A stretch of 64,000 nucleotides of DNA from Deltaproteobacteria bacterium (GTDB lineage Bacteria; Bdellovibrionota_C; UBA2361; SZUA-149; JAITKM01): NCBI GenBank assembly GCA_031278395.1, contig JAITKM010000007.1, positions 222,818-286,817 on the forward strand. Direction: 5' to 3'. The notes under the pieces are model-generated. The model was not told where the DNA came from. It saw nothing but the letters and a program-made list of their open reading frames with translations, and ran no database searches. Shown piece by piece: positions 4,100-64,000 of this stretch. The position numbers were made by a program, and so were the translations under genes. The first letter of the stretch is position 1, and every line of letters starts with the position of its first letter.

Positions 4100-4427
4100 T
4101 GGTAGTGTATAACATTAGTTTTTTCTGATATCTGATATAGGATTAGTGCGTATTTTTGCTTTCTTTAAAAAAATAACAAGATAATCGATAGTTATAACTT
4201 TTTTATTGACTTGTAAAAGATTGGCTATTGTACTGTGGATACGTCAGTAATATCTATCATTTTTCTTTTTTTTCTTTTTTTTGTGTATTTTTTTTTTTTT
4301 TTGATAAGAAATTGCGGGAAAGTTTGGCAATTTTTTTAGGGCAGTTAATAATATTTGTCATTTTTTCATTTAAAAAAAATAAAGTTTCATTTTTAACAAT
4401 TAAAATTTGATTAAAGGTAATTCAATT

Positions 4428-14141: not shown

Positions 14142-14300
14142 GCTCTATGCCTCGTTGTGTTATAAAAAGATAGATATTTTGAAAGCTAAAGGGTGTGGAT
14201 GTCTAAAATAATATTCCAGTTTTTGCAATAAGTTATCTGAATTTTTTCTGTTATAATAATCGGTTAAGCCGTTTTTTTATATGAATTTATGAGGACTATA

Positions 14301-14324
14301 TTACAGGCAATCCTGCCTGTGCAT
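14301..14324. repeat. REP-like palindrome copy 1 (ACAGGCAATCCTGCCTGTG) at the 3' end of the ABC ATPase gene
   Basis: Imperfect palindrome shared with 27471-27496 (inverted), 32000-32033 and 58380-58412. Confidence 0.6.
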
Positions 14325-14343
14325 TTATTCTAAGAGATGTAAA

Positions 14344-30879: not shown

Positions 30880-31995
30880 GTGAGGATTTTTATGGATGTG
30901 AATTTTAAAGAAAAAGGAAATTATACTCTTGGTGCGATTTTTTCTATTACTGTCGGTATTGCTTTTCTGCTTGGTGTAGTTAATTTAACCAGATATGCAT
31001 ATGCCGTGAATGCTGTCGAACAAGCATCCAGAAGTGTGGCACGCTGTTTAACTCCAACTGATTCGGAATGTTTAGATTTAGATTCTATCAGCACCCAGAA
31101 AAATATTGAGGTAACTAATTCAATTCCAGAATGGTTCGGAATAAAAAAATGTCCACCCATTATTTTTTCTCCTGATCCAATTGAATGTAATCAACAACAA
31201 ACTTATTTTCAACTAGATGATGGACAAGTTATTACTAAGCCTGAAGACTGTAAAATAGATCCTACAATTTGCAATTGTCTTTGTAGCTGTTGCGGAAAAT
31301 ATAACTATTTCTTTCGCCTAAACAACAGCAGTGAGACAACCCAATTCTCCAGCGATTCAGCAGCCGAGCCAATTCCTTCGTTGTGGTCTACCAATTGCCC
31401 CGCAGAGCTTGGTGAGATTGTGGCGTTGTCAACTGATTTTGCCTTTAGTTATAACAATAACCCCAAAATTTTTATGCCGCAGAGTTTAGCTGCTGGTAAT
31501 TATTTAGATTATTTCAATACTATTAATCTTCCAGAAAATTCCAGCGTTACTAAAATAGAAACAACAGTTACTATCAATGGCGACAACAAAAATTGCAAGG
31601 AGCAAACATCAGAGGTTGTAACTTCTGTCGTTGAGCGCGTTACTTTAGGCAGATCTAAAGAACGCCCAGAAGCCTGCGCTGCTTTTGATGATTGCCAAAA
31701 CGAGAATGAAACAATGCAAGCTTTAGCGTTTAAGGATTTATCAAGTAATGAACAAGCTACCCAAATCGCCAAACAAAAAGGCTATGCTGAAATAGCCAGA
31801 GCTTTTGCTAATTATCTACCTAATTGTAATAATCAAGCCAATTGTTCACAAATTTCTATTACTCAAAATGGTTCTAACGCTTTAATTGATGTTAGTTATA
31901 ATTTACAGCTAACTTTTCCATTTGATTTGTTGCTCAAAGATTTTTTACCGGTGCGAACTAGAAAAGAAGAAGCTATGGAATTGTTTATTGAGTAG
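30880..31995 (+). CDS. Cys-rich secreted protein with TadE/TadG-like N-terminal pseudopilin segment (hypothetical)
   Basis: N-terminal pattern GNYTLGAIFSITVGIAFLLGVVNLTRYAYAVNAVEQASRSVARC resembles the TadE-like domain. About 20 Cys in the remainder. Confidence 0.4.
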   Translation: MRIFMDVNFKEKGNYTLGAIFSITVGIAFLLGVVNLTRYAYAVNAVEQASRSVARCLTPTDSECLDLDSISTQKNIEVTNSIPEWFGIKKCPPIIFSPDPIECNQQQTYFQLDDGQVITKPEDCKIDPTICNCLCSCCGKYNYFFRLNNSSETTQFSSDSAAEPIPSLWSTNCPAELGEIVALSTDFAFSYNNNPKIFMPQSLAAGNYLDYFNTINLPENSSVTKIETTVTINGDNKNCKEQTSEVVTSVVERVTLGRSKERPEACAAFDDCQNENETMQALAFKDLSSNEQATQIAKQKGYAEIARAFANYLPNCNNQANCSQISITQNGSNALIDVSYNLQLTFPFDLLLKDFLPVRTRKEEAMELFIE

Positions 31996-31999
31996 GAAT

Positions 32000-32033
32000 G
32001 TAGCACAGGCAATCCTGGCTGTGTGTATAAAAC
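32000..32033. repeat. REP-like palindrome copy 3 (GTAGCACAGGCAATCCTGGCTGTGTGTATAAAAC)
   Basis: GTAG-initiated palindrome in the convergent intergenic region. Near-identical to 58380-58412. Confidence 0.6.
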
Positions 32034-39184: not shown

Positions 39185-40078
39185 ATGAATTACGGATTAA
39201 AATTAGATTCTCGATTGATTTTTTTGCTAGTGTTTATTGTTGTCGCTATCCCGCTAGTTTATGATTCTTCCATTAAACCTGCTAAAATGGAGACCGCTAA
39301 TGTTACCTATCAAGAGCTTGAAAAGCTTGCCGAAAACCAAAAAAATGGCAAGCCAGCTTTGGTGCTAATTGCCGCTGATTTAGCTCCTTCAACGCAATCC
39401 GAAAATGAGCCGCAAACTTCAGTGCTAATTGAGCATTTGTTGCGCAGAAGAATTCCTTTTGGCTTAATTTCTCTGATTCCGTTTGCAACTCCTTATCTAG
39501 AACAAATGCCCCAGGAGATTGTAACTAAGTTAGCTCAAGAGACAGGAGAAACTTGGGAATACGGTAAAGATTGGGTTAATTTTGGTTATCGACCAGGGTC
39601 GACTATTATGATTCAAAAATTTGCTAAGTCCAAAGACCTACACGAATTTTTTAAAACTGATGCTCAGGCAATTCCGATGAAGAAGTTAGAAATTATGAAA
39701 GGGATTAAAACAATTCAGGACATTCCAGCTTTGATAGAACTAACTGGCACGGTTGGGGTTTTTAATGTTTGGTTACAGTTTTTTAGGTCGGATCAGCATG
39801 TACCAACTTTAATTCATGGTTGCACCGCAATTACAATTCCAGAAGCTTATAATTATTTTATTACCAATCAAATCTCTGGTTTGCTAGAAGGGGTAGCTGG
39901 CGCGGCATGGTATGAGGAATTATTAAGTGAAGTGTATCCAGCCCGCAAGCCTGGTCATGCGTTAAAAATTATGACTGCTTTGTCAATTGGCAATATTTTA
40001 ATTATTGTTTTAATCGGCATTGGGAATTTGCAAGAGTTGTGGAATTACTGGAAGAATAAGAGAACTAGAAATTTTTAG
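39185..40078 (+). CDS. Membrane-anchored protein (hypothetical), operon gene 3
   Basis: N-terminal TM, a large domain, and a C-terminal TM. Starts 10 nt after gene 2. Confidence 0.5.
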   Translation: MNYGLKLDSRLIFLLVFIVVAIPLVYDSSIKPAKMETANVTYQELEKLAENQKNGKPALVLIAADLAPSTQSENEPQTSVLIEHLLRRRIPFGLISLIPFATPYLEQMPQEIVTKLAQETGETWEYGKDWVNFGYRPGSTIMIQKFAKSKDLHEFFKTDAQAIPMKKLEIMKGIKTIQDIPALIELTGTVGVFNVWLQFFRSDQHVPTLIHGCTAITIPEAYNYFITNQISGLLEGVAGAAWYEELLSEVYPARKPGHALKIMTALSIGNILIIVLIGIGNLQELWNYWKNKRTRNF

Positions 40079-40111
40079 AGGTCCCCTGAGATATTAGAAA
40101 TACCCTTAATT

Positions 40112-40834
40112 ATGAATTACACATTATTTACACTATCTTGGTTTGAAACTATTTTAGCTGGGATATCTGTGTTAGCAATTTATTCTTTTCTCTATCGGGA
40201 AAACAAATTTTACCGTTTGTTTGAGCATCTTTTTATTGGTATTTCTACGGCAATTGTAACTATTGAACCAATTAAAACTTTTTTTTGGCAAACAACTTTA
40301 AAACCGCTACTGGGTTTAGATCGTCTTGCATTTCCGGATGGTACATATGTTGCGGATTACGATTTTAATTATTTGTTATTTTTAATTCCTATCTTTTTTG
40401 GTTCGCTTTATTACAGCATATTAGTTCCTAAATATAGTTGGCTGGCGCAAATCACAATTGGTTTTTTATTAGGGATTAGTGGAGGTATGGCTTTTAATGC
40501 AACCATGGTAGAAGTTACTCCACAAATTATTGATTCCTTTCGTCCACTTTATATAAATCTGCCGGAGCAATCGGCGAGAGAAAACTTAATCAATAGTCTT
40601 AATAATATTTTCTTTCTTATAGTTTTATTTTCGACTTCTTGTTATTTCTTTTTTACTTTTAAGCGCAAGCCAAACGGAGTGGTGGAGAAAATTTCAACTT
40701 CCGGACGTTGGCTCATGATGGGTTGTTTTGGGGCGTTTTTTGGCACTACTATAATGGCGCGCCTAGCATTGTTAATTGAGAGATTGCAATTTATGGTTGA
40801 CCATTGGTGGGTTGCTGTCATGGCATTGTTTTAA
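40112..40834 (+). CDS. Polytopic membrane protein (hypothetical), operon gene 4
   Basis: ~6 predicted TM helices. Preceded by the conserved leader motif, which overlaps the upstream stop. Confidence 0.5.
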   Translation: MNYTLFTLSWFETILAGISVLAIYSFLYRENKFYRLFEHLFIGISTAIVTIEPIKTFFWQTTLKPLLGLDRLAFPDGTYVADYDFNYLLFLIPIFFGSLYYSILVPKYSWLAQITIGFLLGISGGMAFNATMVEVTPQIIDSFRPLYINLPEQSARENLINSLNNIFFLIVLFSTSCYFFFTFKRKPNGVVEKISTSGRWLMMGCFGAFFGTTIMARLALLIERLQFMVDHWWVAVMALF

Positions 40835-40933: not shown

Positions 40934-41971
40934 ATGTTAAAAATTACTGATACATTGCAACTACAAACGCCCCTGATTTTAGCTCCAATGTCTGGGATTA
41001 CTAATGGAGCCTTTAGAAGTTTGATTTTTCGCGAAAATAAAATTGTAAATTCTCCGATTAATGTTTCCAATTCCCAGACTAATAATTTTCTAACTAACGT
41101 AGATCCTACATCTGAGATAGAAAATGCCGTCGGACTAATGGTTACTGAGTTTGTTAGTGTCGAAGCGCTAATCCGCAATAATCAACGCTGCTTGCAAATG
41201 CTAAAATTTTTGCCAACAGAAAAGCCAATTGCCATTCAAATCTTCGGTTACGAAATTAATCATATGGTGCAAGCCGCCAAAATGGTCGAAGAATTTGGAG
41301 CAGACCTTCTTGACATAAATTGTGGCTGCCCGGTCCCTAAAGTTGTTCGTCGAGGTGGTGGAGCGGAACTTATGAGACAGCCCGGACATCTTCGCAAAAT
41401 GCTGTCAGCCATAAAAAAAGAAATAAAAATTCCAATCGGCGTAAAGATTCGTTCTGGCTGGGATGAAGCTCATAAAAATGCAATTGAAATAGCAAAACTT
41501 GTAGAAGCTGAAGGGGCGAGCATGCTTACGATTCATGCTCGGACAAAAGTGCAGGGGTATAGTGGGAAAGTTGACTATAATATAGTAGAAGAAATTTGTA
41601 AAAGTATCTCAATTCCCACGATTGGTAGTGGAGATATTTGTGATATAGAGGACGCTAAATTTTACTTAGGGTTAGGTGTGCGTGGATTAATGATTGGTCG
41701 AGCATCACTAAAAAATCCGTGGGTGTTTAAGGATATTTTCAATGCTTTGTGTGGGGCAGTTGAGCAGGAAAGTAGAAGTTATCAGGAAATAGTTAGGATT
41801 TTAAGAGATTATAATTTTTTATTGCAGAATGACCTTCCAGAAAAAGCAATTCTTGGTCGTCTTAAACAATTAGTTGCCCAAATTACAAAAGGACAGGTAG
41901 GCGGCACAAAATTGCGGGCTGCTTTGTGCCAAGCTAAAACGACTGAACAATTTTTTGAATTGCTATGCTAG
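40934..41971 (+). CDS. dusB: tRNA-dihydrouridine synthase (Dus family, DusB-like)
   Basis: Motifs LAPMSGITNGAFR and DINCGCPVPKV. TIM-barrel FMN-binding blocks. Confidence 0.85.
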   Translation: MLKITDTLQLQTPLILAPMSGITNGAFRSLIFRENKIVNSPINVSNSQTNNFLTNVDPTSEIENAVGLMVTEFVSVEALIRNNQRCLQMLKFLPTEKPIAIQIFGYEINHMVQAAKMVEEFGADLLDINCGCPVPKVVRRGGGAELMRQPGHLRKMLSAIKKEIKIPIGVKIRSGWDEAHKNAIEIAKLVEAEGASMLTIHARTKVQGYSGKVDYNIVEEICKSISIPTIGSGDICDIEDAKFYLGLGVRGLMIGRASLKNPWVFKDIFNALCGAVEQESRSYQEIVRILRDYNFLLQNDLPEKAILGRLKQLVAQITKGQVGGTKLRAALCQAKTTEQFFELLC

Positions 41972-41983
41972 TTTTAGGTTTTT

Positions 41984-42093
41984 CTGGTATGGGGTTACTT
42001 TTGTATATTGAATTTTTATATAATAATTAGTTAATTCAATATATTATATTTTTATAAATCATTAAAAAAGTAAGAAAAGTAACCCCATACCAG
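41984..42093. repeat. MITE/BIME-like palindromic element, full copy A (18-bp terminal inverted repeats CTGGTATGGGGTTACTTT / AAGTAACCCCATACCAG, AT-rich core)
   Basis: Terminal inverted repeats read directly. Same family as 55230-55357 and 60093-60203. Followed by 3x CAGAAAAACC at 42091-42120. Confidence 0.8.
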
Positions 42094-42120
42094 AAAAACC
42101 CCAGAAAAACCAGAAAAAAC

Positions 42121-42258
42121 AATTCCCACTATTGGTAGTGGAGATATTTGTGATATAGGGGGGGACGCTAAATTTTACTTAAGATTAGGTGTGCAAGGGT
42201 TAATAATTGCTCAAGCGTCACTAAAAAATCTGCGAGTGTTTAAGGATATTTTTAATGC
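42121..42258 (+). pseudogene. Diverged duplicate (~85% identity) of dus-gene internal fragment 41611-41745
   Basis: Direct alignment of the two stretches (AATTCCCAC[G/T]ATTGGTAGTGGAGATATTTGTGATATAG... to ...GGATATTTT[C/T]AATGC). The copy ends at the ATG of the downstream ABC ATPase gene. Confidence 0.75.
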
Positions 42259-42995
42259 TAAATGTTATTAACCTACACAAATCGTTTGCTGACCATCTAG
42301 TCATTAACGGCGTGAGTTTCGTTTTAGAAGGTGGAGATCTAGTTGGTTTAGTTGGACCAAGCGGTTGTGGAAAAAGTGTGCTTCTCAAACTTTTGGCAAA
42401 TGTTATCGAGCCGGACCAAGGGCAGATTCTAATGGGAAGTAATATCAACACTCGCCATATGGTTCCGAATGTCTCATATAAGGTAGGCTTCTTGTTTCAA
42501 GAAAGCGCTTTGTTTGATTCTATGACAGTGTTAGAAAATGTGCTTTTTCCTTTAAAAGATGGCGGATTGCGTGAAACAAAACTTAGCGAGAAATCTGCTT
42601 TGGAACGAGCGTATCAAATTTTAACTGAAGTTGGTTTAGCAAAAGCCTACCACAAATTGCCTGGCGAATTAAGTGGTGGTATGCGGCGTCGAGTTGGGAT
42701 TGCTAGAGCTTTGGTGAATAATCCAGATTTAGTTCTGTTAGATGACCCTACTGGTGGGCTTGATCCAGTTGCGGCAAGCGTTATTATGGATCTAATTAAA
42801 AAACTACATCAAACCTATAAGCCGATTGTAGTTTTAGTTAGTCACGATATTCGACGCTTACTGCCCAATGTAAGTCGAGTGTTAGGTTTGTTTAATGGTA
42901 AAATATGTTGTGATTGCTCACCAGAAATGCTTACGACAACCACTCCTGATTATGTTGTTCAGTTTTTAGCTACGAGATATGATTTTAAAAAGTAA
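42255..42995 (+). CDS. ABC transporter ATP-binding protein (MlaF/Ttg2A-like)
   Basis: Walker A GPSGCGKSVL. Signature LSGGMRRRVGIARAL. Walker B LLDDPTGGLD. H-loop SHD. Confidence 0.8.
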   Translation: MLNVINLHKSFADHLVINGVSFVLEGGDLVGLVGPSGCGKSVLLKLLANVIEPDQGQILMGSNINTRHMVPNVSYKVGFLFQESALFDSMTVLENVLFPLKDGGLRETKLSEKSALERAYQILTEVGLAKAYHKLPGELSGGMRRRVGIARALVNNPDLVLLDDPTGGLDPVAASVIMDLIKKLHQTYKPIVVLVSHDIRRLLPNVSRVLGLFNGKICCDCSPEMLTTTTPDYVVQFLATRYDFKK

Positions 42996-43033
42996 AGATA
43001 ATTAGTTCGTGATTGTTGTAATAGGTTAATAGA

Positions 43034-43810
43034 ATGTCAAAATATCAAAATAAAATAAACGAAATTAGAGAAAAATTTTTAGCTGGGATTAGTGTTCCTG
43101 AAAAGAAACCTTTTGTGCCGGATGATTTTCAACTTGAAGCAATTGAATCCTTAAAACAAGGTAAGGATACTTTAGTTGTTGCTCCAACTGGAGCCGGAAA
43201 AACTTATATTGCCTTAGAAGCAATTCAAGAGATTGTAGCGCAAGGCAAGCGGGTGATTTATACAGTTCCGCTTAAGGCTTTATCGAATGCGAAGTATGCT
43301 GAAATGAAAAGGCTTTTTCAAGGAAAGTTCACGGTTGGAATTTTAACCGGCGATAGAAAAATCGACGGCGATAGTGATGTGGTGGTGGCAACTACAGAGA
43401 TTTATCGTAATGAGCTTTACCGCTACTGCGAAAACTATGGTTTGGTAGTGCTGGATGAATTGCACTATTTGTCTGACCCACAGCGTGGGGCAGTTTGGGA
43501 AGAGAGTATTATTCTGGCGCCACGTTCAGCAACCCTCTTAATGTTGTCAGCTTCAATATCTAATTATCAGGAAGTTGCAGAGTGGATAAAAAGTATTCGG
43601 GATAAGGAAGTTAAAATCGTGCATATTACAAAACGTCCAGTAGAGTTAAGACTTGGTTTTTTACATCCGAAGTTGGGATTATTACCTTTGGCAAATGAGA
43701 ATGGCGAACCCTTAGCAGAAGTGCAGAATTTTTATAGTCAGGCTAACGATACATTCCGTGGGAACTTGGGCGGCAGATTTGGTAGAGGAGCAAGACGGGG
43801 ATTTAGATAA
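43034..43810 (+). CDS. Ski2-like/DEAD-DEAH superfamily-2 helicase, N-terminal (RecA1) half, as a separate ORF
   Basis: Motif I APTGAGKT. Motif II DELHY. Motif III SASISN. Ends with a Gly/Arg-rich tail and a TAA stop. Confidence 0.75.
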   Translation: MSKYQNKINEIREKFLAGISVPEKKPFVPDDFQLEAIESLKQGKDTLVVAPTGAGKTYIALEAIQEIVAQGKRVIYTVPLKALSNAKYAEMKRLFQGKFTVGILTGDRKIDGDSDVVVATTEIYRNELYRYCENYGLVVLDELHYLSDPQRGAVWEESIILAPRSATLLMLSASISNYQEVAEWIKSIRDKEVKIVHITKRPVELRLGFLHPKLGLLPLANENGEPLAEVQNFYSQANDTFRGNLGGRFGRGARRGFR

Positions 43811-43855
43811 AGGGAAATTTTAGGAGGTTCCTTAATTAACTAAGGATAAGCATTA

Positions 43856-45310
43856 ATGATTAAAGAATACAATATTACAGATATAGTTTTAGAATTAGAG
43901 CGATGTAATTTATTACCAACTATCGTTTTTAGAACTTCGCGTTCACAGTGCGATTCAGATATTTTAAAGGCGGTAAATAACAAAGCCTTAGCTTTGCCTA
44001 TCTCGCAGCAGCGAGCTATCAAAGATGCGGTCTATGAAATAGCCAAAAATTATGAAATGGAGTTGGAATTAATTACTACCCATCCACATTATAGTAGCTT
44101 AATTAAAACTGGCGTAGGGGCGCATCATGCGGGGCAACTCTTAATGTGGCGGTTGTTGCTTGAGGAGTTAATGTCATTGGGAGTGTTAAAAGTTCTTTGT
44201 GCAACAGGAACTGTCGCGGCTGGTGTTGACTTTCCAGCTCGCACAACTGTGGTAACAGCCCATACGAAGCGTGGGCATGACGGTTATAATAAGTTACTTT
44301 CAACAGAGTTTCAGCAGATGTCGGGTCGAGCGGGGCGTCGTGGTAAAGATATAGTTGGTTTTTGTGTAGCAGCGCCCTCGGCGTTTTGTGATGCTCGTGA
44401 ATTATTGAAGTTGTCTAAAACTCCGCCAGAGCCGTTGATGTCCGCATATTTTCCAAGCCCTAGCACAGTTTTAAATTTGTTACGCTATCGCAATGTTGAT
44501 GATTTACGTTTTACGGTGGAGCGGAGTTTAGCCAGTTTTGCCGATAAGAAGCAGGCTGTAATTTTGGAGAAAGAGGCGGCTGAGGTTGATGAAAAAATTA
44601 AAGTTAAAGAAGATCTAGTTGGGCGCTTGAAAGGACATCAGAAAGACAATGAAACTAAGGCGCTGACTAAGTTAATCAAGAAGTCTAAACGACTACACAC
44701 GCAAGCTGAGGAATTAAAGAATAAGCAAGGGACGTTGTTAGATCGAACGATAGCCGGTCTGCGGCAATTAGGGCATTTGAATAATTTTACCCTTTCAGAT
44801 AAGGGGTATTGGAGCGCTAATCTTTGCACAGGTATGGTTTTGGAATTAGCTGAAATAATAGAGGCGGGATATTTTGATCATATTAGTCCAGAGCGGTTAG
44901 CGACAATTTTGGCAGGTATTTGTGGTGAAGATCATCGTCAGTATTTAAAGGCGAGTAAATCTCCGATTTCAGATGCTGATTTTCAAGGGTTAAATGAAAT
45001 TTTAAAGCGTGTTCAAGACATGAACTTACCGGGAGCGCCGACGGAGATAAATGTTATAGTTCCTAATGCGGCATACACTATGGAAGTTTGGTTGCAAGCT
45101 GAGAACTGGCAGGAATTTCGGGCGATGTTGTTGTTGAATGGCGCAGCAGAGGGGGATGCTGCTAGATTAATTACCCAAACTGCAGAGCATTTAAATCAGC
45201 TCAAACGGCTTGACGAGAAGTTTCCAAAATTAGCCAAGCGAGCCGAGGAAGCCCGTCGCAGAATTTTAAGACCGCCTCTTACAGAAGCAATTAATTTAGA
45301 TAGCGTTTAA
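43856..45310 (+). CDS. Ski2-like helicase, C-terminal (RecA2 + winged-helix/ratchet) half, as a separate ORF
   Basis: Motif IV region IVFRTSRSQCD. Motif V/VI (ATGTVAAGVDFPARTTV; QMSGRAGRRG). Has its own leader motif and ATG. Confidence 0.75.
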   Translation: MIKEYNITDIVLELERCNLLPTIVFRTSRSQCDSDILKAVNNKALALPISQQRAIKDAVYEIAKNYEMELELITTHPHYSSLIKTGVGAHHAGQLLMWRLLLEELMSLGVLKVLCATGTVAAGVDFPARTTVVTAHTKRGHDGYNKLLSTEFQQMSGRAGRRGKDIVGFCVAAPSAFCDARELLKLSKTPPEPLMSAYFPSPSTVLNLLRYRNVDDLRFTVERSLASFADKKQAVILEKEAAEVDEKIKVKEDLVGRLKGHQKDNETKALTKLIKKSKRLHTQAEELKNKQGTLLDRTIAGLRQLGHLNNFTLSDKGYWSANLCTGMVLELAEIIEAGYFDHISPERLATILAGICGEDHRQYLKASKSPISDADFQGLNEILKRVQDMNLPGAPTEINVIVPNAAYTMEVWLQAENWQEFRAMLLLNGAAEGDAARLITQTAEHLNQLKRLDEKFPKLAKRAEEARRRILRPPLTEAINLDSV

Positions 45311-45394
45311 TTTTGATATAGACAGAGACTAATTCTTCAACTCGTAAAAAACTAATAGATAGTAGATAGTTAGAGTAGTTTAGAGTAGTTTTTT

Positions 45395-45413
45395 CTGGTA
45401 TGGGGTTACTTTT
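45395..45413. repeat. Solo left arm of the palindromic element family (CTGGTATGGGGTTACTTTT)
   Basis: Exact arm match with no partner arm within 150 bp. Preceded by short tandem AGTAGATAGT/TAGAGTAGTT repeats. Confidence 0.6.
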
Positions 45414-45599
45414 ATATTTTACTTTTATACTTTTGTATCTAGTTTCATCTAGAACAGCGGATCAGTTAAGATTTATGCTGAATTTTAATATGTATTTATA
45501 TTTTAGGACAAGGTCGTTTAAAGAAATTATGAGATATTGTCGATTGTTAGAGTAGTAGAGTGTTAAAAAATTAAGGTCTTTGAAATAGGGAGGAGGTTT

Positions 45600-48617: not shown

Positions 48618-48702
48618 TTTATCTCCCGAAACTAGTTATGGTTTTAATGATGTTTTGAGATGTTCTAAACCATGAATTAGATACAAATTTTTGGTCGGGA
48701 GA

Positions 48703-48738
48703 TTTTGGTATCGGGTTCTTGGGATTTTGGTATCGGGT
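48703..48738. repeat. Two degenerate tandem copies of the element arm (TTTTGGTATCGGGTT x2) downstream of the HUH transposase gene
   Basis: Differs from the family arm TTTTGGTATGGGGTT at a single position, and is duplicated 21 bp apart. Confidence 0.5.
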
Positions 48739-49013
48739 TATTAGATTTTTCTTAGTTTTTTTAGTGTCTAATAAGAATTTTTTATTTTATAAAACATCGA
48801 TTTGAAGGGGATAAAAGATAAGAAATTAGTAAAAAGATATATATTGTCAATTCATATGTAGTAGAATTAGTTATTCTCCATGTAACTTATTTAGTTTTTT
48901 ATAAAAAAAAGTTAAAAAGCATATATTTTTCCATAGTTGTCAGTGCAATTTATATCAAATCAGGCTTTTGCATGTAAAATTTTCGATTAATTTACCGCTT
49001 TAAAAAGAACTTG

Positions 49014-49988: not shown

Positions 49989-50101
49989 AATAGATAGCTC
50001 CGATTGGTAAATTTTTATAAATAAAGAGGTGAGGTTATAACCTCGCTATATACCTATCGGGTGAAATTCTTATTGTTTTCATATGTTCGCTGTCGTAAAT
50101 A

Positions 50102-50175
50102 TAACCCCATACCAGTTCGCGCCAGTTCCAGTTCGCGCCCGCGCGAGTTCGCCAATTAGTAACCCCATACCAGTT
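50102..50175. repeat. Two direct copies of the element right arm (TAACCCCATACCAGTT) flanking a GC-rich CCAGTTCGCGCC-type spacer, upstream of the transposase gene
   Basis: Exact arm sequence at 50102-50117 and 50160-50175. Confidence 0.7.
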
Positions 50176-55212: not shown

Positions 55213-55229
55213 TGAAAGTTTCTAGTTCA

Positions 55230-55357
55230 CTGGTATGGGGTTACTTTATTTCCTATGTCTTTTATATTTTTATTTAAAAAATATCACATTATTTAAGTAT
55301 ATTATTGTTACTAAAATCATTAAAAATATAAGAAAATAAAGTAACCCCATACCAGTT
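55230..55357. repeat. MITE/BIME-like palindromic element, full copy D
   Basis: Arms CTGGTATGGGGTTACTTT and AAAGTAACCCCATACCAGTT. The core shares TAAGTATATTAT and AAAATATAAGAAA with copy E. Confidence 0.8.
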
Positions 55358-55552
55358 GACCCAGTTGAATATAGAGATTCCATAGAATAATTATGGTATT
55401 TTCGATTTTTGCAACTATTTATCTTGATTGTCATCTAATTCATAACAGTATTGTGCATATAGACTTCTAAGCCAATATTTATGCTTTATACATTTTTCGC
55501 GTATCGAAAATATTAACACTACAAGCGTAGTAATATATTCTATTTTTTACAT

Positions 55553-58357: not shown

Positions 58358-58379
58358 TCATTTCTTTTTTGAAAGGACA

Positions 58380-58412
58380 GTAGCACAGGCAATACTGCCT
58401 GTGTATCAAAAC
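58380..58412. repeat. REP-like palindrome copy 4 (GTAGCACAGGCAATACTGCCTGTGTATCAAAAC), followed by a second GC hairpin
   Basis: Near-identical to copy 3. A second hairpin GTCGGCGAAGCCGAC follows immediately. Confidence 0.6.
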
Positions 58413-59875: not shown

Positions 59876-60092
59876 ATATAATAGGGGTGTTTTTATGATA
59901 TTAGATATTTTTAGTCTCAGATTGTTATTTTACTCCACACTTTGAGCCTTGATTACATATAATTAATTCAGCCAGTTAGATGTTCTTAAAAAAATCTTTA
60001 TCCTTTTATATACATTTTGTCAGGGAAGCAACTGTTGTTTGCGGTGTTACCAAATATCGAATAATGGCAATTCTAATAGTTCTGGATTTTTT

Positions 60093-60203
60093 TGGTATGG
60101 GGTTACTTTGATATTTAGATATCTAAAAAAATAACAAATAAATTAAGTATATTATAGTATTTAATACACTGAAAATATAAGAAATAAAGTAACCCTGTAC
60201 CAG
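60093..60203. repeat. MITE/BIME-like palindromic element, full copy E, overlapping the 3' end of the LRR gene
   Basis: Arms TGGTATGGGGTTACTTT and AAAGTAACCCTGTACCAG. The last ~28 codons of the LRR ORF are read from this element. Confidence 0.8.
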
Positions 60204-63200
60204 TGGGAATATGATGAATATGACCGCCAACGTATTCCGGGAGCTGCAATCCTTTTGCTGAGGTAAGCTTATTAAGATAAATATCTTTGCCAACGTATTC
60301 CGGGAGCTGCAATCCTTTTACTGAGGTAAGATTCCTAAGATAAAGATTTCCGCCGACGTGTTTCGGGAGCTGTAATCCTTCGGCTGAGGTAAGATAATCA
60401 AGATAAAGATCTCCGCCGACGTATTCCGTGAGTTGCAATCCTTCGGCTGAGGTAAGATTACTAAGAACAAGATTTTTACTAACGTATTCCGGGAGTTTTA
60501 TTCCTTTGGCTGAGGTAAGCCTACTAAGAAAAAGATCTCCGTCGACGTGTTTCGGGAGCTGCAATCCTTCGGCTGAGGTAAGATTATCAAGATAAAGAGC
60601 TCCGCTGACGTGTTTCGGGAGCTGCAATCCTTTTGCTGAGGTAAGATTACCAAGATAAAGAATTCCGCCGAAGTGTTTCGGGAGCTGTAATCCTTCGGCT
60701 GAGGTAAGACTAGTAAGATCAAGATATCCGCCAACGTATTCCGGGAGCTGCAATCCTTCGGCTGAGGTAAGATTATTAAGATTAAGACCTCCGCCGACGT
60801 GTTTCGGGAGCTGCAATCCTTTGGCTGAGGTAAGATCATCAAGAAAAAGATTTCCACTAACGTATTCCGGGAGTTTTATTCCTTTGGCTGAGGTAAGATT
60901 CCTAAGATCAATATGTCCGTAATAAATCTTAGCTCCCTTAAATATTTTATTAAATGATTTCACAGTGAATTTTTGTTCATTAATATCCTCATCTAAACGT
61001 ACCTCCTCTGGTTTACAATTGAAAATTTGACTCAAATCTTGTTTTTTATTTCGATTTTCAAGAAGTTCTTTAATTCTTGGATCGTTACTATAGCCAAATC
61101 CTTCAATTCTTCCGTCAATTTCGTAGAGGAATCTTAAATCTTCTACAGTCAACTCCTCTCCTGTTTTTGCACGATTATCTATGTCTGTAAGCCGCTGCAT
61201 GTCGGCGCTCCTTTTCCTGAAAACATCGGCTTCTCTGCCAAACTCTGCAAGTTTTTTATTAAGAGTTTCTTGCATTACAGGCTCAATATTCTGACTTGGC
61301 AAGATGCCACGAATTTCGCCAATTTTATTCTTGTTCATACGAATAGCTAAACGAGGTTGAACAAATTTACCTTGCTCATCTTTTGAGTAATAAACATAAA
61401 AATCACCACCTTGAATTTGAGTATTAGCTGTGCTTTGACCAGCTGTACACCAGCCGGTTCCCCTACCTTGTAAGGATTTCCAGAGCTCTTTGGCGTGCGA
61501 CATGTTGCCTTGCGAGAATTTTCTCCATTCGCCTTCAATGCTTAAGTTATTTTCTTGAGCAGCTAAGGACTTCTGAATTAATTCGGCATACAGCTTAGGA
61601 AAATTTTTTTCAAAATCTATGATAGCTTGCGGATTTTTATTACCTTTGGCGATTCCCTCGTAGATATCATAAATTTGCGCCAGCGCTTCGCGGTTGATAT
61701 CCGGAAACGGCGCTACTGTGTTTTTAGTGCGTTTCTTAAATTTTCCTTGCTTTTTGTCAAATTGCGAAAGACTGATAAGTTGATTCCAAGCGTAAAACTT
61801 AAACCACGCTGGATATACAGCATCGCTGGAAGCAAGATAGTCAATGATATTATCAAGCGATTTCTTCTGGTCGTTGATAACGGTTTCTATCATTCTTTTC
61901 CTTGTTTCGGGAGTAATTTCAATTGTTCCATGCCCTTGCTCACGAGCAATTTTCTTTTGGAGTTCAATTTCGGATTCCGGGTAATTTTCAGGTTTTAACA
62001 GAAGTTGGTCGTAAATTTTATCTCGGTATACTTTTCTAAAAGTTTTTCTATCGAGAAAAATATTTTCTAATCGATTAATATATGTATCAATTTTTGGCCC
62101 GGGTTCGTTTGGAACATTTTTACCTGTAACTAGTTTTTTACTTTTAACAGCTTTTTTAACCGGAGCTGAGTTATGTAGTTTGGGGTCCTTCAAATGAATA
62201 GGATGTTTGTTGTTACCGCGCTTTTCAGCTTTGATATTAGGTAAGGCTTGTTCAATGTGGTAATTATCGGAAGTTTGGTGTGAAGCAACCGAGCTTACGA
62301 TATCGTTTCCTATGGCCTTTAAAGGAGTTTCTATTACTTCCACTTTAATCCCGAAATTATTCGCTTTGATAAAATCAGCAAATTCTCTCGCTTCTTTAAC
62401 CTTATTTTCACTGCACAACTGCGCTAACTTTCGCACCACCGCATCGTTGACTTGCGGGTTATCTAAATTCAGCTCTAATTTTTTATTTTTTGCAGATTGA
62501 AGCAACTTAGCCACATTCTCTAAATTACCTTTTTCAATCGATTGGCTTACGCCTTTATAAAACGACTCGGTATTTTCCTGCTTGCTTAATATTCCATATC
62601 CCTTCGCTGCATTGATAACTGCTGCATCCAAATTACCATCAGCTACAGCAGCACTAATTTTACTTGCTATATTCTTCTTAACCTGCACCTGCACTAGCTT
62701 GCCACCAACGTGTAACATTACCAGCAACGTCGCTGTCTGTGCCAGTGCATCACCTTTTTGTCCCTCAGAGGCCGCAATCCCACTCTCGGAGACCAGCACT
62801 ACATTACCTAAACTTCCTAAAACTCCTACCGCACCTCCTGTTAAAAACGATCGACCAACCTCGTTAAAATTTACTCCCGTGCCATACCGCACGTCTGACC
62901 CAACTTGACTAACAAGATTGCTTGATGCAAAAGCCGAAGCTGTCGAAAGACCACCAATGCCTCTTGTACTCAGTTGTCTCACAATTGATTGCTGTATCTC
63001 AGGCGAAAAATTAGCTTTAGATAATGTCACTGCAAGCATTTCCGGACCCTGACTGGCTAGCCATTTGGTATTGCAAAGCACACTTACTCCGTTAGCTACT
63101 TTGAAAAAAGTAGCATTAGCTAAACCTTCCACGGCATTGTCTGCTATAGACTTTGACAAGTCAAAATTACCTGCCACTCCGCCTCCTTGAACTGCCGCAT

Positions 63201-64000
63201 CTGTCAAATCAATAGCAAGCCCTGCTGCACCACTAACGCCAGCTGTTGCTCCAAACACTATCGTGCCCCCTGCTACTGTTCCTCCAGTTACACCCAATGA
63301 CGGAAGAAGATACACTTGCCCAGTAGCAGTGATCGCTATTGCCGCCGTCATCGTTCCAACAAACTTGATAGAGCTTGCCCACATTTCTTGCGAACACACA
63401 TAGCTGTCAAGGTATTTGTTACTTTGGCTAAACTCTTCGCTAAGGCGGGCATACTTATGAGTGTCGCGATTTAATATTCCGTCCATTTCAAGATAGCGAT
63501 CAAACAATACGTCTTCACCGCGAATTGCTTTATACCGCGCATTAAACTCAGCGTCGGATAAACTAGGAGCGGCTTTTGCTAACTCAGTAATGGATTGCTG
63601 GACACGCACTTGTTCTTCCAGCAAAGTTTGGGCTGATAACGGCAGAGTTTTGAACCACGAGGCATCACGATAATCTTTTGCATTAGCAGAGCCGTTGGTT
63701 AGTATATACATAGCTGCGTCGGAAAGAATTAAATTGCCTTCGGTCTTTAATTTTTCTGCTAGTCCGCCTAACCAGCCTTGCTTTTCCCACGCGTCGGATA
63801 TTAGTTGTGAACGTCCCTGATTAATATAAGTCAGACGCCGAATATCTCTTTCACGGGTTGTACGTAGCGCTTCTGCTAACGCTTCAGGAGAAAGCAAAAT
63901 TTGCTGTGTTGAGGAAGAGGTCGGCTCGACAGATGCTTGTAAAGCTTCCAACGCTTTGGCGTCAAAAAATTCTAACACAGAATATTTATTCCGTAGTTGC
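60115..64000 (-). CDS. Very large secreted/surface leucine-rich-repeat protein (bacterial 20-residue LRR type), 5' end beyond the window
   Basis: About 12 tandem 20-aa repeats NLTSAEGLQLPKHVGGxLYLD (LxxLxLPxxV type) at the C-terminus. Upstream there is a Gly-zipper-like hydrophobic region (GVTGGTVAGGTIVFGATAGVSGAAGLAIDL) and long alpha-helical regions. The frame is open to the window edge. Confidence 0.8.
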   Translation of the reverse strand, partial: QLRNKYSVLEFFDAKALEALQASVEPTSSSTQQILLSPEALAEALRTTRERDIRRLTYINQGRSQLISDAWEKQGWLGGLAEKLKTEGNLILSDAAMYILTNGSANAKDYRDASWFKTLPLSAQTLLEEQVRVQQSITELAKAAPSLSDAEFNARYKAIRGEDVLFDRYLEMDGILNRDTHKYARLSEEFSQSNKYLDSYVCSQEMWASSIKFVGTMTAAIAITATGQVYLLPSLGVTGGTVAGGTIVFGATAGVSGAAGLAIDLTDAAVQGGGVAGNFDLSKSIADNAVEGLANATFFKVANGVSVLCNTKWLASQGPEMLAVTLSKANFSPEIQQSIVRQLSTRGIGGLSTASAFASSNLVSQVGSDVRYGTGVNFNEVGRSFLTGGAVGVLGSLGNVVLVSESGIAASEGQKGDALAQTATLLVMLHVGGKLVQVQVKKNIASKISAAVADGNLDAAVINAAKGYGILSKQENTESFYKGVSQSIEKGNLENVAKLLQSAKNKKLELNLDNPQVNDAVVRKLAQLCSENKVKEAREFADFIKANNFGIKVEVIETPLKAIGNDIVSSVASHQTSDNYHIEQALPNIKAEKRGNNKHPIHLKDPKLHNSAPVKKAVKSKKLVTGKNVPNEPGPKIDTYINRLENIFLDRKTFRKVYRDKIYDQLLLKPENYPESEIELQKKIAREQGHGTIEITPETRKRMIETVINDQKKSLDNIIDYLASSDAVYPAWFKFYAWNQLISLSQFDKKQGKFKKRTKNTVAPFPDINREALAQIYDIYEGIAKGNKNPQAIIDFEKNFPKLYAELIQKSLAAQENNLSIEGEWRKFSQGNMSHAKELWKSLQGRGTGWCTAGQSTANTQIQGGDFYVYYSKDEQGKFVQPRLAIRMNKNKIGEIRGILPSQNIEPVMQETLNKKLAEFGREADVFRKRSADMQRLTDIDNRAKTGEELTVEDLRFLYEIDGRIEGFGYSNDPRIKELLENRNKKQDLSQIFNCKPEEVRLDEDINEQKFTVKSFNKIFKGAKIYYGHIDLRNLTSAKGIKLPEYVSGNLFLDDLTSAKGLQLPKHVGGGLNLNNLTSAEGLQLPEYVGGYLDLTSLTSAEGLQLPKHFGGILYLGNLTSAKGLQLPKHVSGALYLDNLTSAEGLQLPKHVDGDLFLSRLTSAKGIKLPEYVSKNLVLSNLTSAEGLQLTEYVGGDLYLDYLTSAEGLQLPKHVGGNLYLRNLTSVKGLQLPEYVGKDIYLNKLTSAKGLQLPEYVGGHIHHIPTGTGLLYFLYFQCIKYYNILNLFVIFLDI
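60215..60900. repeat. Tandem ~60-bp DNA repeats (≈12 units) encoding the LRR units
   Basis: Unit ...CCGACGTGTTTCGGGAGCTGCAATCCTTCGGCTGAGGTAAGATT... repeated with >85% identity. Generates a spurious 119-aa ORF in another frame (60498-60857). Confidence 0.85.

What the first reader, a model, noticed from the sequence alone, without database searches (positions are those of the whole stretch)
41611..42258. Diverged duplicate of an internal dus-gene fragment placed after a repeat element, supplying the start codon of the next ABC ATPase gene
The 135-bp dus-gene segment 41611-41745 (encoding IPTIGSGDICDIEDAKFYLGLGVRGLMIGRASLKNPWVFKDIFNAL) recurs at 42121-42258 with ~85% identity. It still reads as an open frame. 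It lies immediately downstream of element A and a CAGAAAAACC x3 microsatellite. The copy ends ...GGATATTTTTAATGCTAAATG, so the ABC ATPase initiation region (ATG 42255) sits inside the duplicated fragment. This is a rearrangement scar, probably associated with element activity, that created a new 5' region for the downstream gene. The ABC ATPase (MlaF-like) has no cognate permease nearby.
Basis: seen in the sequence. Interest (0 to 1): 0.55.

Follow-up and report, generated by a model that had tools for sequence, protein, structure and literature searches.

The report
Decaying dus gene fragment before ABC gene
A 137-base piece from the middle of a tRNA-modification gene (dus) was copied about 500 bases downstream into what used to be a near-zero gap before the next gene; it is a real but ordinary mutational scar that is decaying like junk DNA, and the next gene's start codon is its own, not a gift from the copy.

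Summary
Window 41610-41746, inside the dusB-like gene, recurs at 42120-42259: 122 of 137 bases identical, one 3-nt insertion, blastn E=5e-45. An independent assembly shows the same layout.

- **Ancestral state.** In six relatives dus and the ABC ATPase gene overlap or lie at most 9 nt apart. The 283-nt spacer here is therefore derived. It holds a 124-nt palindromic repeat, a CCAGAAAAACC slippage repeat and the dus fragment.
- **Start codon.** ABC orthologues begin MLNV, MLKV or MLSV, and one relative reads AAATGCTGAATGT at the start. The ATG is native. It lies in a 6-nt microhomology (AATGCT) that forms the right junction.
- **Decay.** With outgroups, the live dus took 5 changes, all synonymous. 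The copy took 9-10, of which 8 are non-synonymous and hit invariant Dus motifs (Fisher p=0.003-0.007). Its open frame is expected by chance (P about 0.63).

My best reading is a microhomology-mediated templated insertion, or a duplication followed by deletion, that is now a pseudogene fragment. It incidentally places an AAGGA Shine-Dalgarno-like motif 8 nt before the ATG. A causal role for the repeat element is plausible but unproven. Interest is low.

The parts
40934..41971 (+). Intact dusB-like tRNA-dihydrouridine synthase gene (345 aa), the donor of the duplicated segment.
   Evidence: Pfam Dus E=3e-73. The best NCBIfam hit is DusB at 274.7 bits, slightly below the equivalog cut-off of 293.3. 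Since the duplication it has taken only synonymous changes in the compared segment.
41610..41746 (+). Donor segment inside dus. It encodes (S)IPTIGSGDICDIEDAKFYLGLGVRGLMIGRASLKNPWVFKDIFNA.
   Evidence: Alignments. It ends exactly where the variable linker of Dus begins.
41741..41746 (+). AATGCT in dus, the donor-side microhomology of the right junction.
   Evidence: Read directly from the sequence. Identical to 42254-42259.
41977..42100 (.). 'Element A': a 124-nt palindromic dispersed repeat. The arms are 41977-42002 and 42075-42100 (26/26 complementary), around an AT-rich centre with its own inner hairpin.
   Evidence: the repeat finder I1. RNA fold -53.5 kcal/mol, z=-9.1. Family copies elsewhere in the window. 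Rfam gives only far-sub-threshold hairpin hits.
42090..42119 (+). Short tandem repeat CCAGAAAAACC | CCAGAAAAACC | AGAAAAAA. The first unit is the end of the element's right arm.
   Evidence: TRF: period 11, 2.0 exact copies, about 3 degenerate copies. Pattern search.
42120..42259 (+). Diverged copy of dus 41610-41746: a pseudogene fragment with no start codon and neither the 5' nor the 3' part of the gene.
   Evidence: 89% identity, E=5e-45. tblastn to Dus residues 226-273, E=2e-17. Of the 9-10 changes on the copy lineage, 8 are non-synonymous and hit conserved motifs.
42242..42246 (+). AAGGA, a Shine-Dalgarno-like motif 8 nt upstream of the ABC ATG. It derives from dus codons F-K-D.
   Evidence: Read from the sequence. 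SD-like tetramers precede 18 of 49 long ORFs in the window, against 12% background. Its function is inferred, not shown.
42254..42259 (+). AATGCT, the right junction microhomology. It contains the native ABC start codon ATG at 42255-42257.
   Evidence: Homology to dus ends here. Homology to the ABC start regions of relatives begins here; L024 reads AAATGCTGAATGT.
42255..42995 (+). Orphan ABC-type ATPase gene (246 aa). Its N-terminus is conserved with orthologues.
   Evidence: Pfam ABC_tran E=5e-34. Orthologue N-termini. Below every NCBIfam family cut-off.
55228..55355 (.). A second full copy of the palindromic repeat family. It has the tandem CCAGTTGA x2 at its right end.
60085..60205 (.). A third, more decayed full copy of the repeat family.
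45388..45440 (+). A left-arm-only copy of the repeat family, preceded by the tandem TTAGAGTAGT x2.
50101..50172 (-). Two arms of the repeat family in the same orientation, separated by a CCAGTTCGCG-type microsatellite.

Best explanation
The 140-nt stretch at 42120-42259 is a non-functional, neutrally decaying fragment of the neighbouring dusB-like gene.

**Ancestral state (shown).** dus and the ABC ATPase gene were abutting or overlapping and probably translationally coupled.

**The event (inferred).** After this lineage split from its closest sampled relative, 137 nt from the middle of dus were copied about 510 nt downstream into the tiny dus-ABC spacer. The most parsimonious route is a replication or repair template switch, that is, a templated insertion. 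A nascent strand at the ABC start paired with the identical hexamer AATGCT inside dus. It copied back to position 41610 and then returned. The right junction therefore falls in AATGCT, which already contained the ABC gene's own ATG.

**The neighbours (shown as features, timing inferred).** A 124-nt palindromic MITE/REPIN-like repeat and a slippage microsatellite occupy the same new spacer. They arrived either at the same time or later.

**Consequences.** The fragment encodes nothing. It incidentally provides the present 5' leader of the ABC gene, including an AAGGA ribosome-binding-like motif 8 nt upstream of the ATG. This replaces the lost coupling to dus.

Shown: the duplication, its polarity and age bracket, the decay pattern, the native start codon, and the derived spacer. 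Inferred: the template-switch route and any role as a leader.
For: **The duplication is real.**
- 122/137 identical bases plus a 3-nt insertion, E=5e-45.
- The identical layout appears in a second assembly.

**The spacer is derived.**
- The dus-to-ABC distance is +7, +8 and +9 nt in L024, L025 and L026.
- It is -14, -4 and 0 nt in L032, L033 and L035.
- It is 283 nt here.
- None of the relatives contains the element or a second dus fragment.

**Age and polarity.**
- The copy is 88.9% identical to the window's dus but only 77% identical to the closest relative's dus. The two dus genes are 80% identical over the same segment.
- The copy therefore arose within this lineage, not recently.

**Decay.**
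- Five changes fall on the live dus lineage, all synonymous third positions.
- Nine to ten fall on the copy lineage. Eight are non-synonymous. They include G>A and R>Q in MIGRA, and P>L and W>R in KNPW, which are invariant in all five Dus sequences.
- Fisher p=0.003-0.007. The neutral expectation is 78% non-synonymous.
- Six of nine copy-specific changes are GC>AT.
- The frame stays open in about 63% of neutral simulations.

**The start codon is native.**
- Orthologue N-termini are MLNV, MLKV or MLSV.
- The L024 DNA reads AAATGCTGAATGT.
- Homology to dus stops, and homology to ABC orthologues starts, within the same hexamer.

**Local signs of template switching and slippage.**
- This element copy's palindrome extends 8-9 nt beyond the family core (GGTTTTTCT / AGAAAAACC).
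- Its right end is tandemly repeated.

**General knowledge.** Templated insertions primed at microhomology are an established outcome of polymerase template switching (abstract of PMC8421209, listed).
Against: - The left junction (...CCAGAAAAAA|CAATTCCC) shows no clear microhomology with the sequence upstream of 41610. One of the two proposed switches therefore lacks its expected signature. The element and microsatellite may have overwritten it.
- No intermediate allele was found in any database searched, so the order of events cannot be observed. The events are the fragment insertion, the element insertion and the slippage.
- A pseudogene fragment that has survived to about 11% divergence in a compact bacterial genome might hint at some constraint, for example as a leader. 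The first 40 nt are less diverged than the rest (1/40 against 14/97, p=0.07). This could reflect gene conversion or constraint.
- The mechanism is taken largely from work in eukaryotes and E. coli. Nothing is known about repair pathways in this uncultivated organism.
Confidence: 0.6

Rival explanations
1. The fragment arose by tandem duplication followed by deletions. A tandem duplication starting at 41610 and covering the dus 3' half and the spacer (or more) gave dus-X'Y'-ABC. A later deletion between the two AATGCT hexamers removed Y' and the second spacer. The element then inserted at or near the duplication junction. The end product and its non-function are the same as in the best explanation. 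Only the route differs.
For: - Tandem duplications and microhomology-mediated deletions are the commonest rearrangements in bacteria (general knowledge).
- The X'|ABC junction is exactly what a deletion between the two AATGCT sites would give.
- Both ends of the homology are sharp.
Against: - It needs at least two independent rearrangements plus the element insertion, against one plus the element insertion.
- No trace of the duplicated dus 3' end remains.
- No intermediate allele was found.
Confidence: 0.25
2. The fragment is retained because it was exapted. After the hairpin element separated ABC from dus, the dus-derived sequence became the ABC gene's functional leader. It would supply the ribosome-binding site (AAGGA) and possibly a promoter (TTAAGA-17-AATAAT, 42179-42207). 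It would therefore be under selection as regulatory DNA. This is compatible with either origin route.
For: - AAGGA lies 8 nt before the ATG.
- SD-like motifs are enriched upstream of genes here, 18 of 49 against 12% background.
- Copy-specific G>A changes turn TTAGGG...AATGAT into TTAAGA...AATAAT, a better sigma-70-like match.
- The last 17 nt before the junction hexamer are unchanged.
- The fragment has persisted to 11% divergence.
Against: - The promoter-like match is 9/12. One such site in the region is fewer than the 2.3 +/- 1.8 found in shuffles.
- G>A drift in an AT-rich genome (36% GC) creates such matches by itself.
- Overall the substitutions fit neutrality.
- Most genes in the window lack an SD motif.
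- There are no expression data.
Confidence: 0.15
3. The fragment was moved by the palindromic element itself. The routes would be aberrant transposition, flank transduction or gene-fragment capture as in Pack-MITEs, or repair of a transposase- or nuclease-induced break at the element's end using nearby dus as filler.
For: - The fragment starts 19 nt from the element's right arm.
- About 6 of 10 element ends in the window carry short tandem duplications next to them. Element ends therefore look like hot spots for local copying errors.
Against: - The fragment is outside the inverted repeats, not between them.
- No other element copy in the window is flanked by a gene fragment.
- There is no target-site duplication.
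- There is no transposase evidence.
- The arms are 26/26 perfect. At the fragment's decay rate, 3.4-3.8 changes would be expected in the 52 arm positions (P=0.02-0.03). The element is therefore either younger than the fragment or independently maintained.
- The element family was not found in the metagenome or viral collections, so no wider test was possible.
Confidence: 0.1
4. The direct repeats are attL/attR-like remains of an integrative element that targeted dus and carried a replacement 3' end. The model is the islands that integrate into dusA. Most of the island would since have been deleted.
For: - Direct repeats of 137 nt bracket a segment that contains a dus 3' end.
- dus genes are known integration targets (dusA-specific integrases; recalled from the literature, not checked here).
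Against: - Only 373 nt lie between the repeats. They consist of the gene's own 3' end, which is 87-92% identical to the relative L023 and so not foreign, plus the small repeat.
- No integrase gene was seen in the adjacent ORFs scanned.
- The model predicts the original dus 3' end downstream of the right repeat. ABC follows directly instead.
- At least two extra deletions would be required.
Confidence: 0.03
5. The copy is an assembly artefact, or it is a small translated gene.
For: - The source is a metagenome-assembled genome.
- The frame is open for 60 codons.
Against: - Two assemblies agree base for base.
- 11% divergence with lineage-specific changes on both copies cannot be an assembler duplication.
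- There is no ATG, GTG or TTG start giving 40 aa or more.
- The substitutions destroy conserved motifs.
- Frame retention is expected by chance.
Confidence: 0.03

Closest known systems
Microhomology-mediated templated insertion or local duplication (polymerase template switching; MMBIR-type events, slipped-strand and copy-choice illegitimate recombination in bacteria)
   Same: - A short stretch (137 nt) is copied from a template about 0.5 kb away, in direct orientation.
- The right junction lies in a 6-nt microhomology.
- A strong hairpin-forming palindrome and slippage repeats are adjacent. These are classical contexts for polymerase stalling and switching.
   Different: - The left junction lacks clear microhomology.
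- The event is ancient (about 11% divergence) and fixed, not a fresh somatic or laboratory event.
- The mechanism is inferred from sequence only.
Bacterial gene remnants (pseudogene fragments)
   Same: - There is no start codon and both ends of the gene are missing.
- The substitution pattern is neutral and hits invariant catalytic-domain residues.
- There is an AT-biased mutation spectrum and an indel in a homopolymer run.
   Different: Most bacterial gene remnants are leftovers of the original gene after disruption. Here the original gene is intact next door, and the remnant is an extra partial copy.
REPINs and MITEs (miniature palindromic dispersed repeats), for element A
   Same: - About 125 nt long, extragenic and non-coding.
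- Two conserved inverted ends (core CTGGTATGGGGTTACTTT) around a less conserved spacer.
- Predicted long hairpin, with complementarity kept within each copy although copies differ.
- Several copies within 20 kb. This matches the REPIN organisation described in PMC3116915.
   Different: - No target-site duplication is visible, as would be expected for a MITE.
- The arm has no internal palindromic REP core, and no RAYT was identified, as would be expected for a REPIN.
- Copy number outside the window is unknown.
- The family was not detected in other collections.
Pack-MITE or transduplication-type capture of gene fragments
   Same: A gene fragment is found next to a miniature inverted-repeat element.
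   Different: Captured fragments lie between the terminal inverted repeats and move with the element. Here the fragment is outside the repeats and is unique to this locus.

Membership tests
Partial duplicate / pseudogene fragment of dusB | Significant nucleotide and protein homology to a parent gene over part of its length. | tested here: met
   blastn E=5e-45 and tblastn E=2e-17 to Dus residues 226-273.
Partial duplicate / pseudogene fragment of dusB | No start codon, and the rest of the gene is missing. | tested here: met
   Homology ends sharply at 42120 and 42259. No ORF of 40 aa or more is listed on the + strand there.
Partial duplicate / pseudogene fragment of dusB | Relaxed selective constraint relative to the parent. 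| tested here: met
   Non-synonymous:synonymous counts are 8:1 on the copy lineage and 0:5 on the parent lineage, Fisher p=0.003. The neutral expectation is 78% non-synonymous.
Microhomology-mediated templated insertion | Microhomology at both junctions between donor and recipient. | tested here: inconclusive
   The right junction has the 6-nt AATGCT, shared by dus 41741-41746 and the native ABC start. The left junction has none recognisable, and it now abuts the element's microsatellite.
Microhomology-mediated templated insertion | The template lies nearby and the copy is otherwise colinear with it. | tested here: met
   The donor is 510 nt upstream on the same strand, colinear except for one 3-nt indel.
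MITE | Terminal inverted repeats, small size, no coding capacity and multiple dispersed copies. | tested here: met
   26-nt perfect arms and 124 nt in length. At least four related copies in 41-61 kb, with 10 arm matches against 0.24 expected.
MITE | Target-site duplication flanking the inverted repeats. | tested here: not met
   The flanks of the copies at 41977, 55228 and 60085 show no direct repeat across the element. Only one-sided tandem repeats are present.
MITE | A cognate autonomous IS with the same ends. | not tested
   Only 64 kb of the genome is available. The ORFs of the window were not all scanned for transposases.
REPIN | Two conserved inverted REP units separated by a less conserved spacer, forming a hairpin, in an extragenic position. 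| tested here: met
   Alignment A2, fold, and intergenic positions relative to ORFs. The definition is taken from PMC3116915.
REPIN | Each REP unit has its own imperfect palindromic core. | tested here: not met
   The arm CTGGTATGGGGTTACTTT contains no internal inverted repeat (inspection).
REPIN | An associated RAYT (Y1 transposase) gene, and tens to hundreds of copies per genome. | not testable with these tools
The collection scans found no further copies.
Pack-MITE-type gene-fragment capture | The captured fragment lies between the terminal inverted repeats. | tested here: not met
   The fragment at 42120-42259 lies outside the arms at 41977-42002 and 42075-42100.
Integrative-element att duplication in a dus gene | Direct repeats bracket an integrase-bearing island, with the displaced gene end downstream of the distal repeat. 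| tested here: not met
   Only 373 nt lie between the repeats: the native-like dus 3' end plus the small repeat. ABC follows the distal repeat directly.
   The NCBIfam MlaF model scores 137.2 bits against a cut-off of 441 and is ranked 11th. The conserved neighbours are dus and a split helicase, not a permease.

The most novel reading that the evidence does not exclude
The ~125-nt palindromic repeat family of this uncultivated Bdellovibrionota-like bacterium may be a local mutator. Its hairpin ends would repeatedly provoke polymerase slippage and template switching. This would produce the one-sided short tandem duplications seen at about 6 of 10 ends, the extension of the palindrome into flanking DNA at 41977-42100, and occasionally long-range templated insertions such as the dus fragment. 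That fragment would then have been co-opted as the new translation-initiation region of a gene that had lost translational coupling.
Probability: 0.12. Interest if true: 0.5.

Novelty: new member of a known kind. Interest (0 to 1): 0.2.

Why it matters
This is a clean, datable natural example of how a tightly coupled bacterial gene pair is pulled apart. In one lineage a near-zero spacer grew to 283 nt through a copied gene fragment plus a miniature palindromic repeat. The downstream gene kept its own start codon because the junction fell in a microhomology that contained it.

It is useful as an annotation caution. The open frame is not a gene, and the ATG was not donated.

It is also a small data point on microhomology-mediated rearrangement next to hairpin repeats in a poorly known phylum. 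It does not reveal a new kind of system or bear on a long-standing open question.

Tried and rejected
1. **Genome-contig scan with the Dus protein.** It returned only distant relatives at 28-43% identity.
2. **Metagenome-contig scan for the 18-nt element core.** The three hits are all chance matches inside coding sequence with no second arm.
3. **Viral-contig scan for the two-arm pattern.** No hits.
4. **Rfam scan.** It found only plant-miRNA and snoRNA hairpin models at 20-39 bits against gathering scores of 80-230. This reflects a generic long hairpin, not a known RNA.
5. **Promoter and terminator scan.** One weak promoter-like site, fewer than in shuffles. The two terminator-like hits are a short stem in the fragment without a convincing T-run. 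Neither was used as evidence.
6. **The 16-nt match CCAGAAAAAGCAATTC (41837) against CCAGAAAAAACAATTC (42110).** I considered it as a possible left-junction microhomology and rejected it. blastn E=0.47, and what follows belongs to the 41610 site, not to 41837.
7. **Foreign origin of the dus 3' end.** I tested this by sliding identity to L023. Identity is 87-92% there and 80% overall. This is explained by strong protein conservation of the C-terminal domain in all relatives, so the idea was rejected.
8. **Closer ABC relatives.** The nearest are 67-71% identical, so no intermediate allele was found. P0123 sits in yet another context, Peptidase_S26-ABC-Ham1.
9. **Left-flank synteny.** The membrane proteins upstream of dus have no homologues in the relatives' loci.
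Full report
**1.

The dusB-like ORF runs from 40934 to 41971. It has Pfam Dus E=3e-73, and its best NCBIfam model is DusB. Its internal segment 41610-41746 recurs in the same orientation at 42120-42259.
- MAFFT, the repeat finder and blastn agree on 15 substitutions in 137 aligned positions (89% identity).
- There is one in-frame 3-nt insertion that turns GAG into GGGGGG.
- blastn gives E=5e-45 within the window.
- tblastn with the Dus protein finds only this second place, at residues 226-273, E=2e-17.

The copy follows a 124-nt palindrome at 41977-42100.
- The arms are 26/26 complementary.
- The RNA fold energy is -53.5 kcal/mol, z=-9.1.
- It is followed by a short tandem repeat, CCAGAAAAACC twice exactly plus a degenerate third unit, at 42090-42119.

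The ABC ATPase ORF starts at ATG 42255, inside the last five bases of the homology.

The window comes from a MAG labelled 'Deltaproteobacteria bacterium', on a 302-kb contig. Its homologues carry Bdellovibrionota and Oligoflexia labels. A Logan assembly of run SRR14710901 is identical to the window over 18,476 bases, including the whole region. An 11%-diverged repeat cannot be an assembler's duplication.

**2. What the neighbourhood looked like before**

I fetched loci encoding the nearest Dus and ABC relatives. The distance from the dus stop to the ABC start is:
- +7 nt in L024, +8 nt in L025 and +9 nt in L026, whose Dus proteins are 61-67% identical;
- -14 nt in L032, -4 nt in L033 and 0 nt in L035, whose Dus proteins are about 46-52% identical.

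Where the contig reaches that far (L024, L032, L033 and L035), a helicase split into a DEAD half and a HelC+DSHCT half follows. The window has 283 nt between the two genes. None of the relatives' loci contains the palindromic element or a second dus fragment. The long spacer and everything in it are therefore derived in this lineage.

The closest Dus (L023, 83% aa) sits in a different context, PHO4-dus-cysS. It still serves as an outgroup for the gene sequence.

**3. The start codon is the ABC gene's own**

The ABC orthologues begin MLNVKNLYKSF, MLKVKNLYKSF and MLSVINLYKAF. The window protein begins MLNVINLHKSF.

At the DNA level L024 reads ...AAAGCAAATGCTGAATGT..., and the window reads ...TTTTTAATGCTAAATGT.... 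Homology to dus ends at AATGCT (42254-42259, matching 41741-41746). Homology to the orthologous ABC start begins in the same hexamer.

So the hexamer is a junction microhomology. It existed at both places before the event, and the ATG within it is ancestral. What the fragment does supply is everything immediately upstream of it.

**4. The copy is decaying neutrally**

I aligned the segment codon by codon with L023, L025, L024 and L026.
- The copy groups with the window's dus (88.9%) rather than with L023 (77%).
- The window and L023 are 80% identical over this segment.
- The duplication therefore happened within this lineage after that split, roughly half-way back.

I polarised the 15 differences with the outgroups.
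- Five fall on the live dus lineage. All are synonymous third-position changes.
- Nine fall on the copy lineage, and one is ambiguous.
- Eight of the nine are non-synonymous. They include G>A and R>Q in the MIGRA motif, and P>L and W>R in KNPW. These positions are invariant in all five Dus proteins.
- The contrast is significant, Fisher p=0.003-0.007.
- The copy's 8:1 ratio matches the 78% non-synonymous expected for random hits.
- Six of the nine are GC>AT, as expected for drift in a 36%-GC genome.

The preserved reading frame means little.
- About 63% of simulated neutral histories with 10 substitutions keep it open.
- The single indel is a multiple of three, in what is now a G7 run.
- No usable start codon exists.

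The fragment is a pseudogene fragment, not a gene.

**5. How it probably arose (inference)**

The product is dus[...X Y]-stop-(element, microsatellite)-X'-ABC. Its X'|ABC junction lies in a 6-nt microhomology.

The simplest history is one templated insertion. A nascent strand at the ABC start mispaired with the AATGCT inside dus. It copied 137 nt and switched back. The established class is polymerase template switching at microhomology (abstract of PMC8421209, listed).

The main alternative is a tandem duplication starting at 41610, followed by a deletion between the two AATGCT sites. This gives the same product with one more step.

I cannot separate these two routes. The left junction (...AGAAAAAA|CAATTCCC) has no recognisable microhomology and is now occupied by the element's slippage repeat. 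No intermediate allele exists in the collections I could search.

**6. The palindromic element and its possible role**

The element belongs to a dispersed family.
- The core is CTGGTATGGGGTTACTTT ... AAGTATATTAT ... ATCATTAAAAATATAAGAAA..AAAGTAACCCCATACCAG.
- Copies lie at 41977, 45388 (left half only), 50101/50159, 55228 and 60085. A degenerate tandem lies at 48702.
- All are extragenic.

Its organisation is two conserved inverted ends, a less conserved spacer and a long hairpin, with complementarity kept within each copy. This resembles REPINs as defined in PMC3116915 and MITEs. However:
- no target-site duplication is seen;
- the arm has no internal REP palindrome;
- no transposase could be looked for beyond the window.

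Rfam gives only far-sub-threshold hairpin matches.

Two local features point to copying errors at this element.
- In this copy the palindrome extends 8-9 nt beyond the family core (GGTTTTTCT / AGAAAAACC).
- About six of ten element ends in the window have a short one-sided tandem duplication.

That makes a hairpin-provoked template switch plausible. The case for element involvement remains weak, for these reasons.
- The dus fragment lies outside the inverted repeats.
- No other element copy has a gene fragment beside it.
- The arms are perfect although 3.4-3.8 changes would be expected at the fragment's decay rate (P=0.02-0.03). The element may therefore have arrived later in the only dispensable DNA available, or its hairpin is maintained.

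Element involvement is possible, not shown.

**7. Consequences for the ABC gene (inference)**

The ancestral overlap or abutment implies co-transcription and probably translational coupling with dus. Now a -53 kcal/mol hairpin and 283 nt intervene. No canonical terminator was detected, so read-through remains possible.
- The dus-derived AAGGA at 42242-42246 lies 8 nt before the ATG.
- SD-like motifs precede 18 of 49 long ORFs, against 12% background. It may therefore now serve as the ribosome-binding site.
- A promoter-like TTAAGA-17-AATAAT (42179-42207) was improved by copy-specific G>A changes. It is no better than chance.

Exaptation is a minority possibility, not excluded.

**8. The ABC ATPase label**

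The protein is a generic ABC ATPase.
- Every NCBIfam family scores below its cut-off, and MlaF ranks 11th at 137 bits against 441.
- It is conserved next to dus and the split helicase, without a permease.

'Orphan' is fair. 'MlaF-like' is not established.

**9. Verdict**

This is a genuine, well-delimited and moderately old partial duplication of dus. It is now a neutrally decaying scar, joined to the downstream gene at a microhomology that contains that gene's own start codon. It is a new instance of known kinds of events, namely a microhomology-mediated local duplication and a miniature palindromic repeat. Interest is low (0.2).

The only reading with some novelty is that the repeat family acts as a local template-switch hot spot and that the fragment was co-opted as a leader. 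That needs the whole genome, closer relatives and expression data.

Noticed in passing
window 40934-45310; L024, L032, L033, L035: The four-gene cluster dusB, orphan ABC ATPase, DEAD-box half-helicase and HelC+DSHCT half-helicase is conserved across distant Bdellovibrionota-like MAGs. The genes overlap or abut. The Ski2/DSHCT-type helicase is split into two ORFs at the same place in every genome seen.
   Followed up: partly
window 42090-42119, 45370-45391, 48702-48750, 50112-50152, 55351-55366, 60205-60225: About six of ten ends of the palindromic repeat family carry a short (8-22 nt) one-sided tandem duplication directly beside them. Examples are CCAGAAAAACC x2-3, TTAGAGTAGT x2, CCAGTTGA x2 and GAATATGA x2. 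This suggests recurrent slippage or an unusual end-processing footprint.
   Followed up: partly
L023 1475-2482: The closest Dus relative (83% aa) is not next to the ABC gene. It lies between a PHO4-family phosphate transporter and cysS. The dus neighbourhood has therefore been rearranged in at least one of the two closest lineages.
   Followed up: partly
window 60115-63978 (minus strand), array 60224-60919: A 1287-aa ORF contains eleven 63-nt (21-aa) tandem repeats, with a 189-nt super-period. Its stop codon lies inside a copy of the palindromic element (60085-60205).
   Followed up: no
window 14292-14329, 31994-32031, 58374-58411: A second small repeat family has three copies built around the hairpin CACAGGC-AATCCT-GCCTGTG.
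   Followed up: no
window 41747 onward; L024-L026 Dus proteins: The Dus linker just after KDIF(N/C/Y)A is 30-60 residues longer in L024-L026 than in the window and L023. The right end of the duplicated segment coincides with the start of this variable linker.
   Followed up: no
whole window (49 ORFs of 150 aa or more): Only about 37% of long ORFs have an SD-like tetramer upstream. Many start codons are directly preceded by AATT, which hints at frequent non-SD initiation contexts in this organism.
   Followed up: no
window 39185-40834: Two predicted membrane proteins (297 and 240 aa) upstream of dus have no Pfam or NCBIfam match and no homologue in the relatives' loci.
   Followed up: partly
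window 4260-4302: A 43-nt T-rich homopolymer-like tract (76% T).
   Followed up: no
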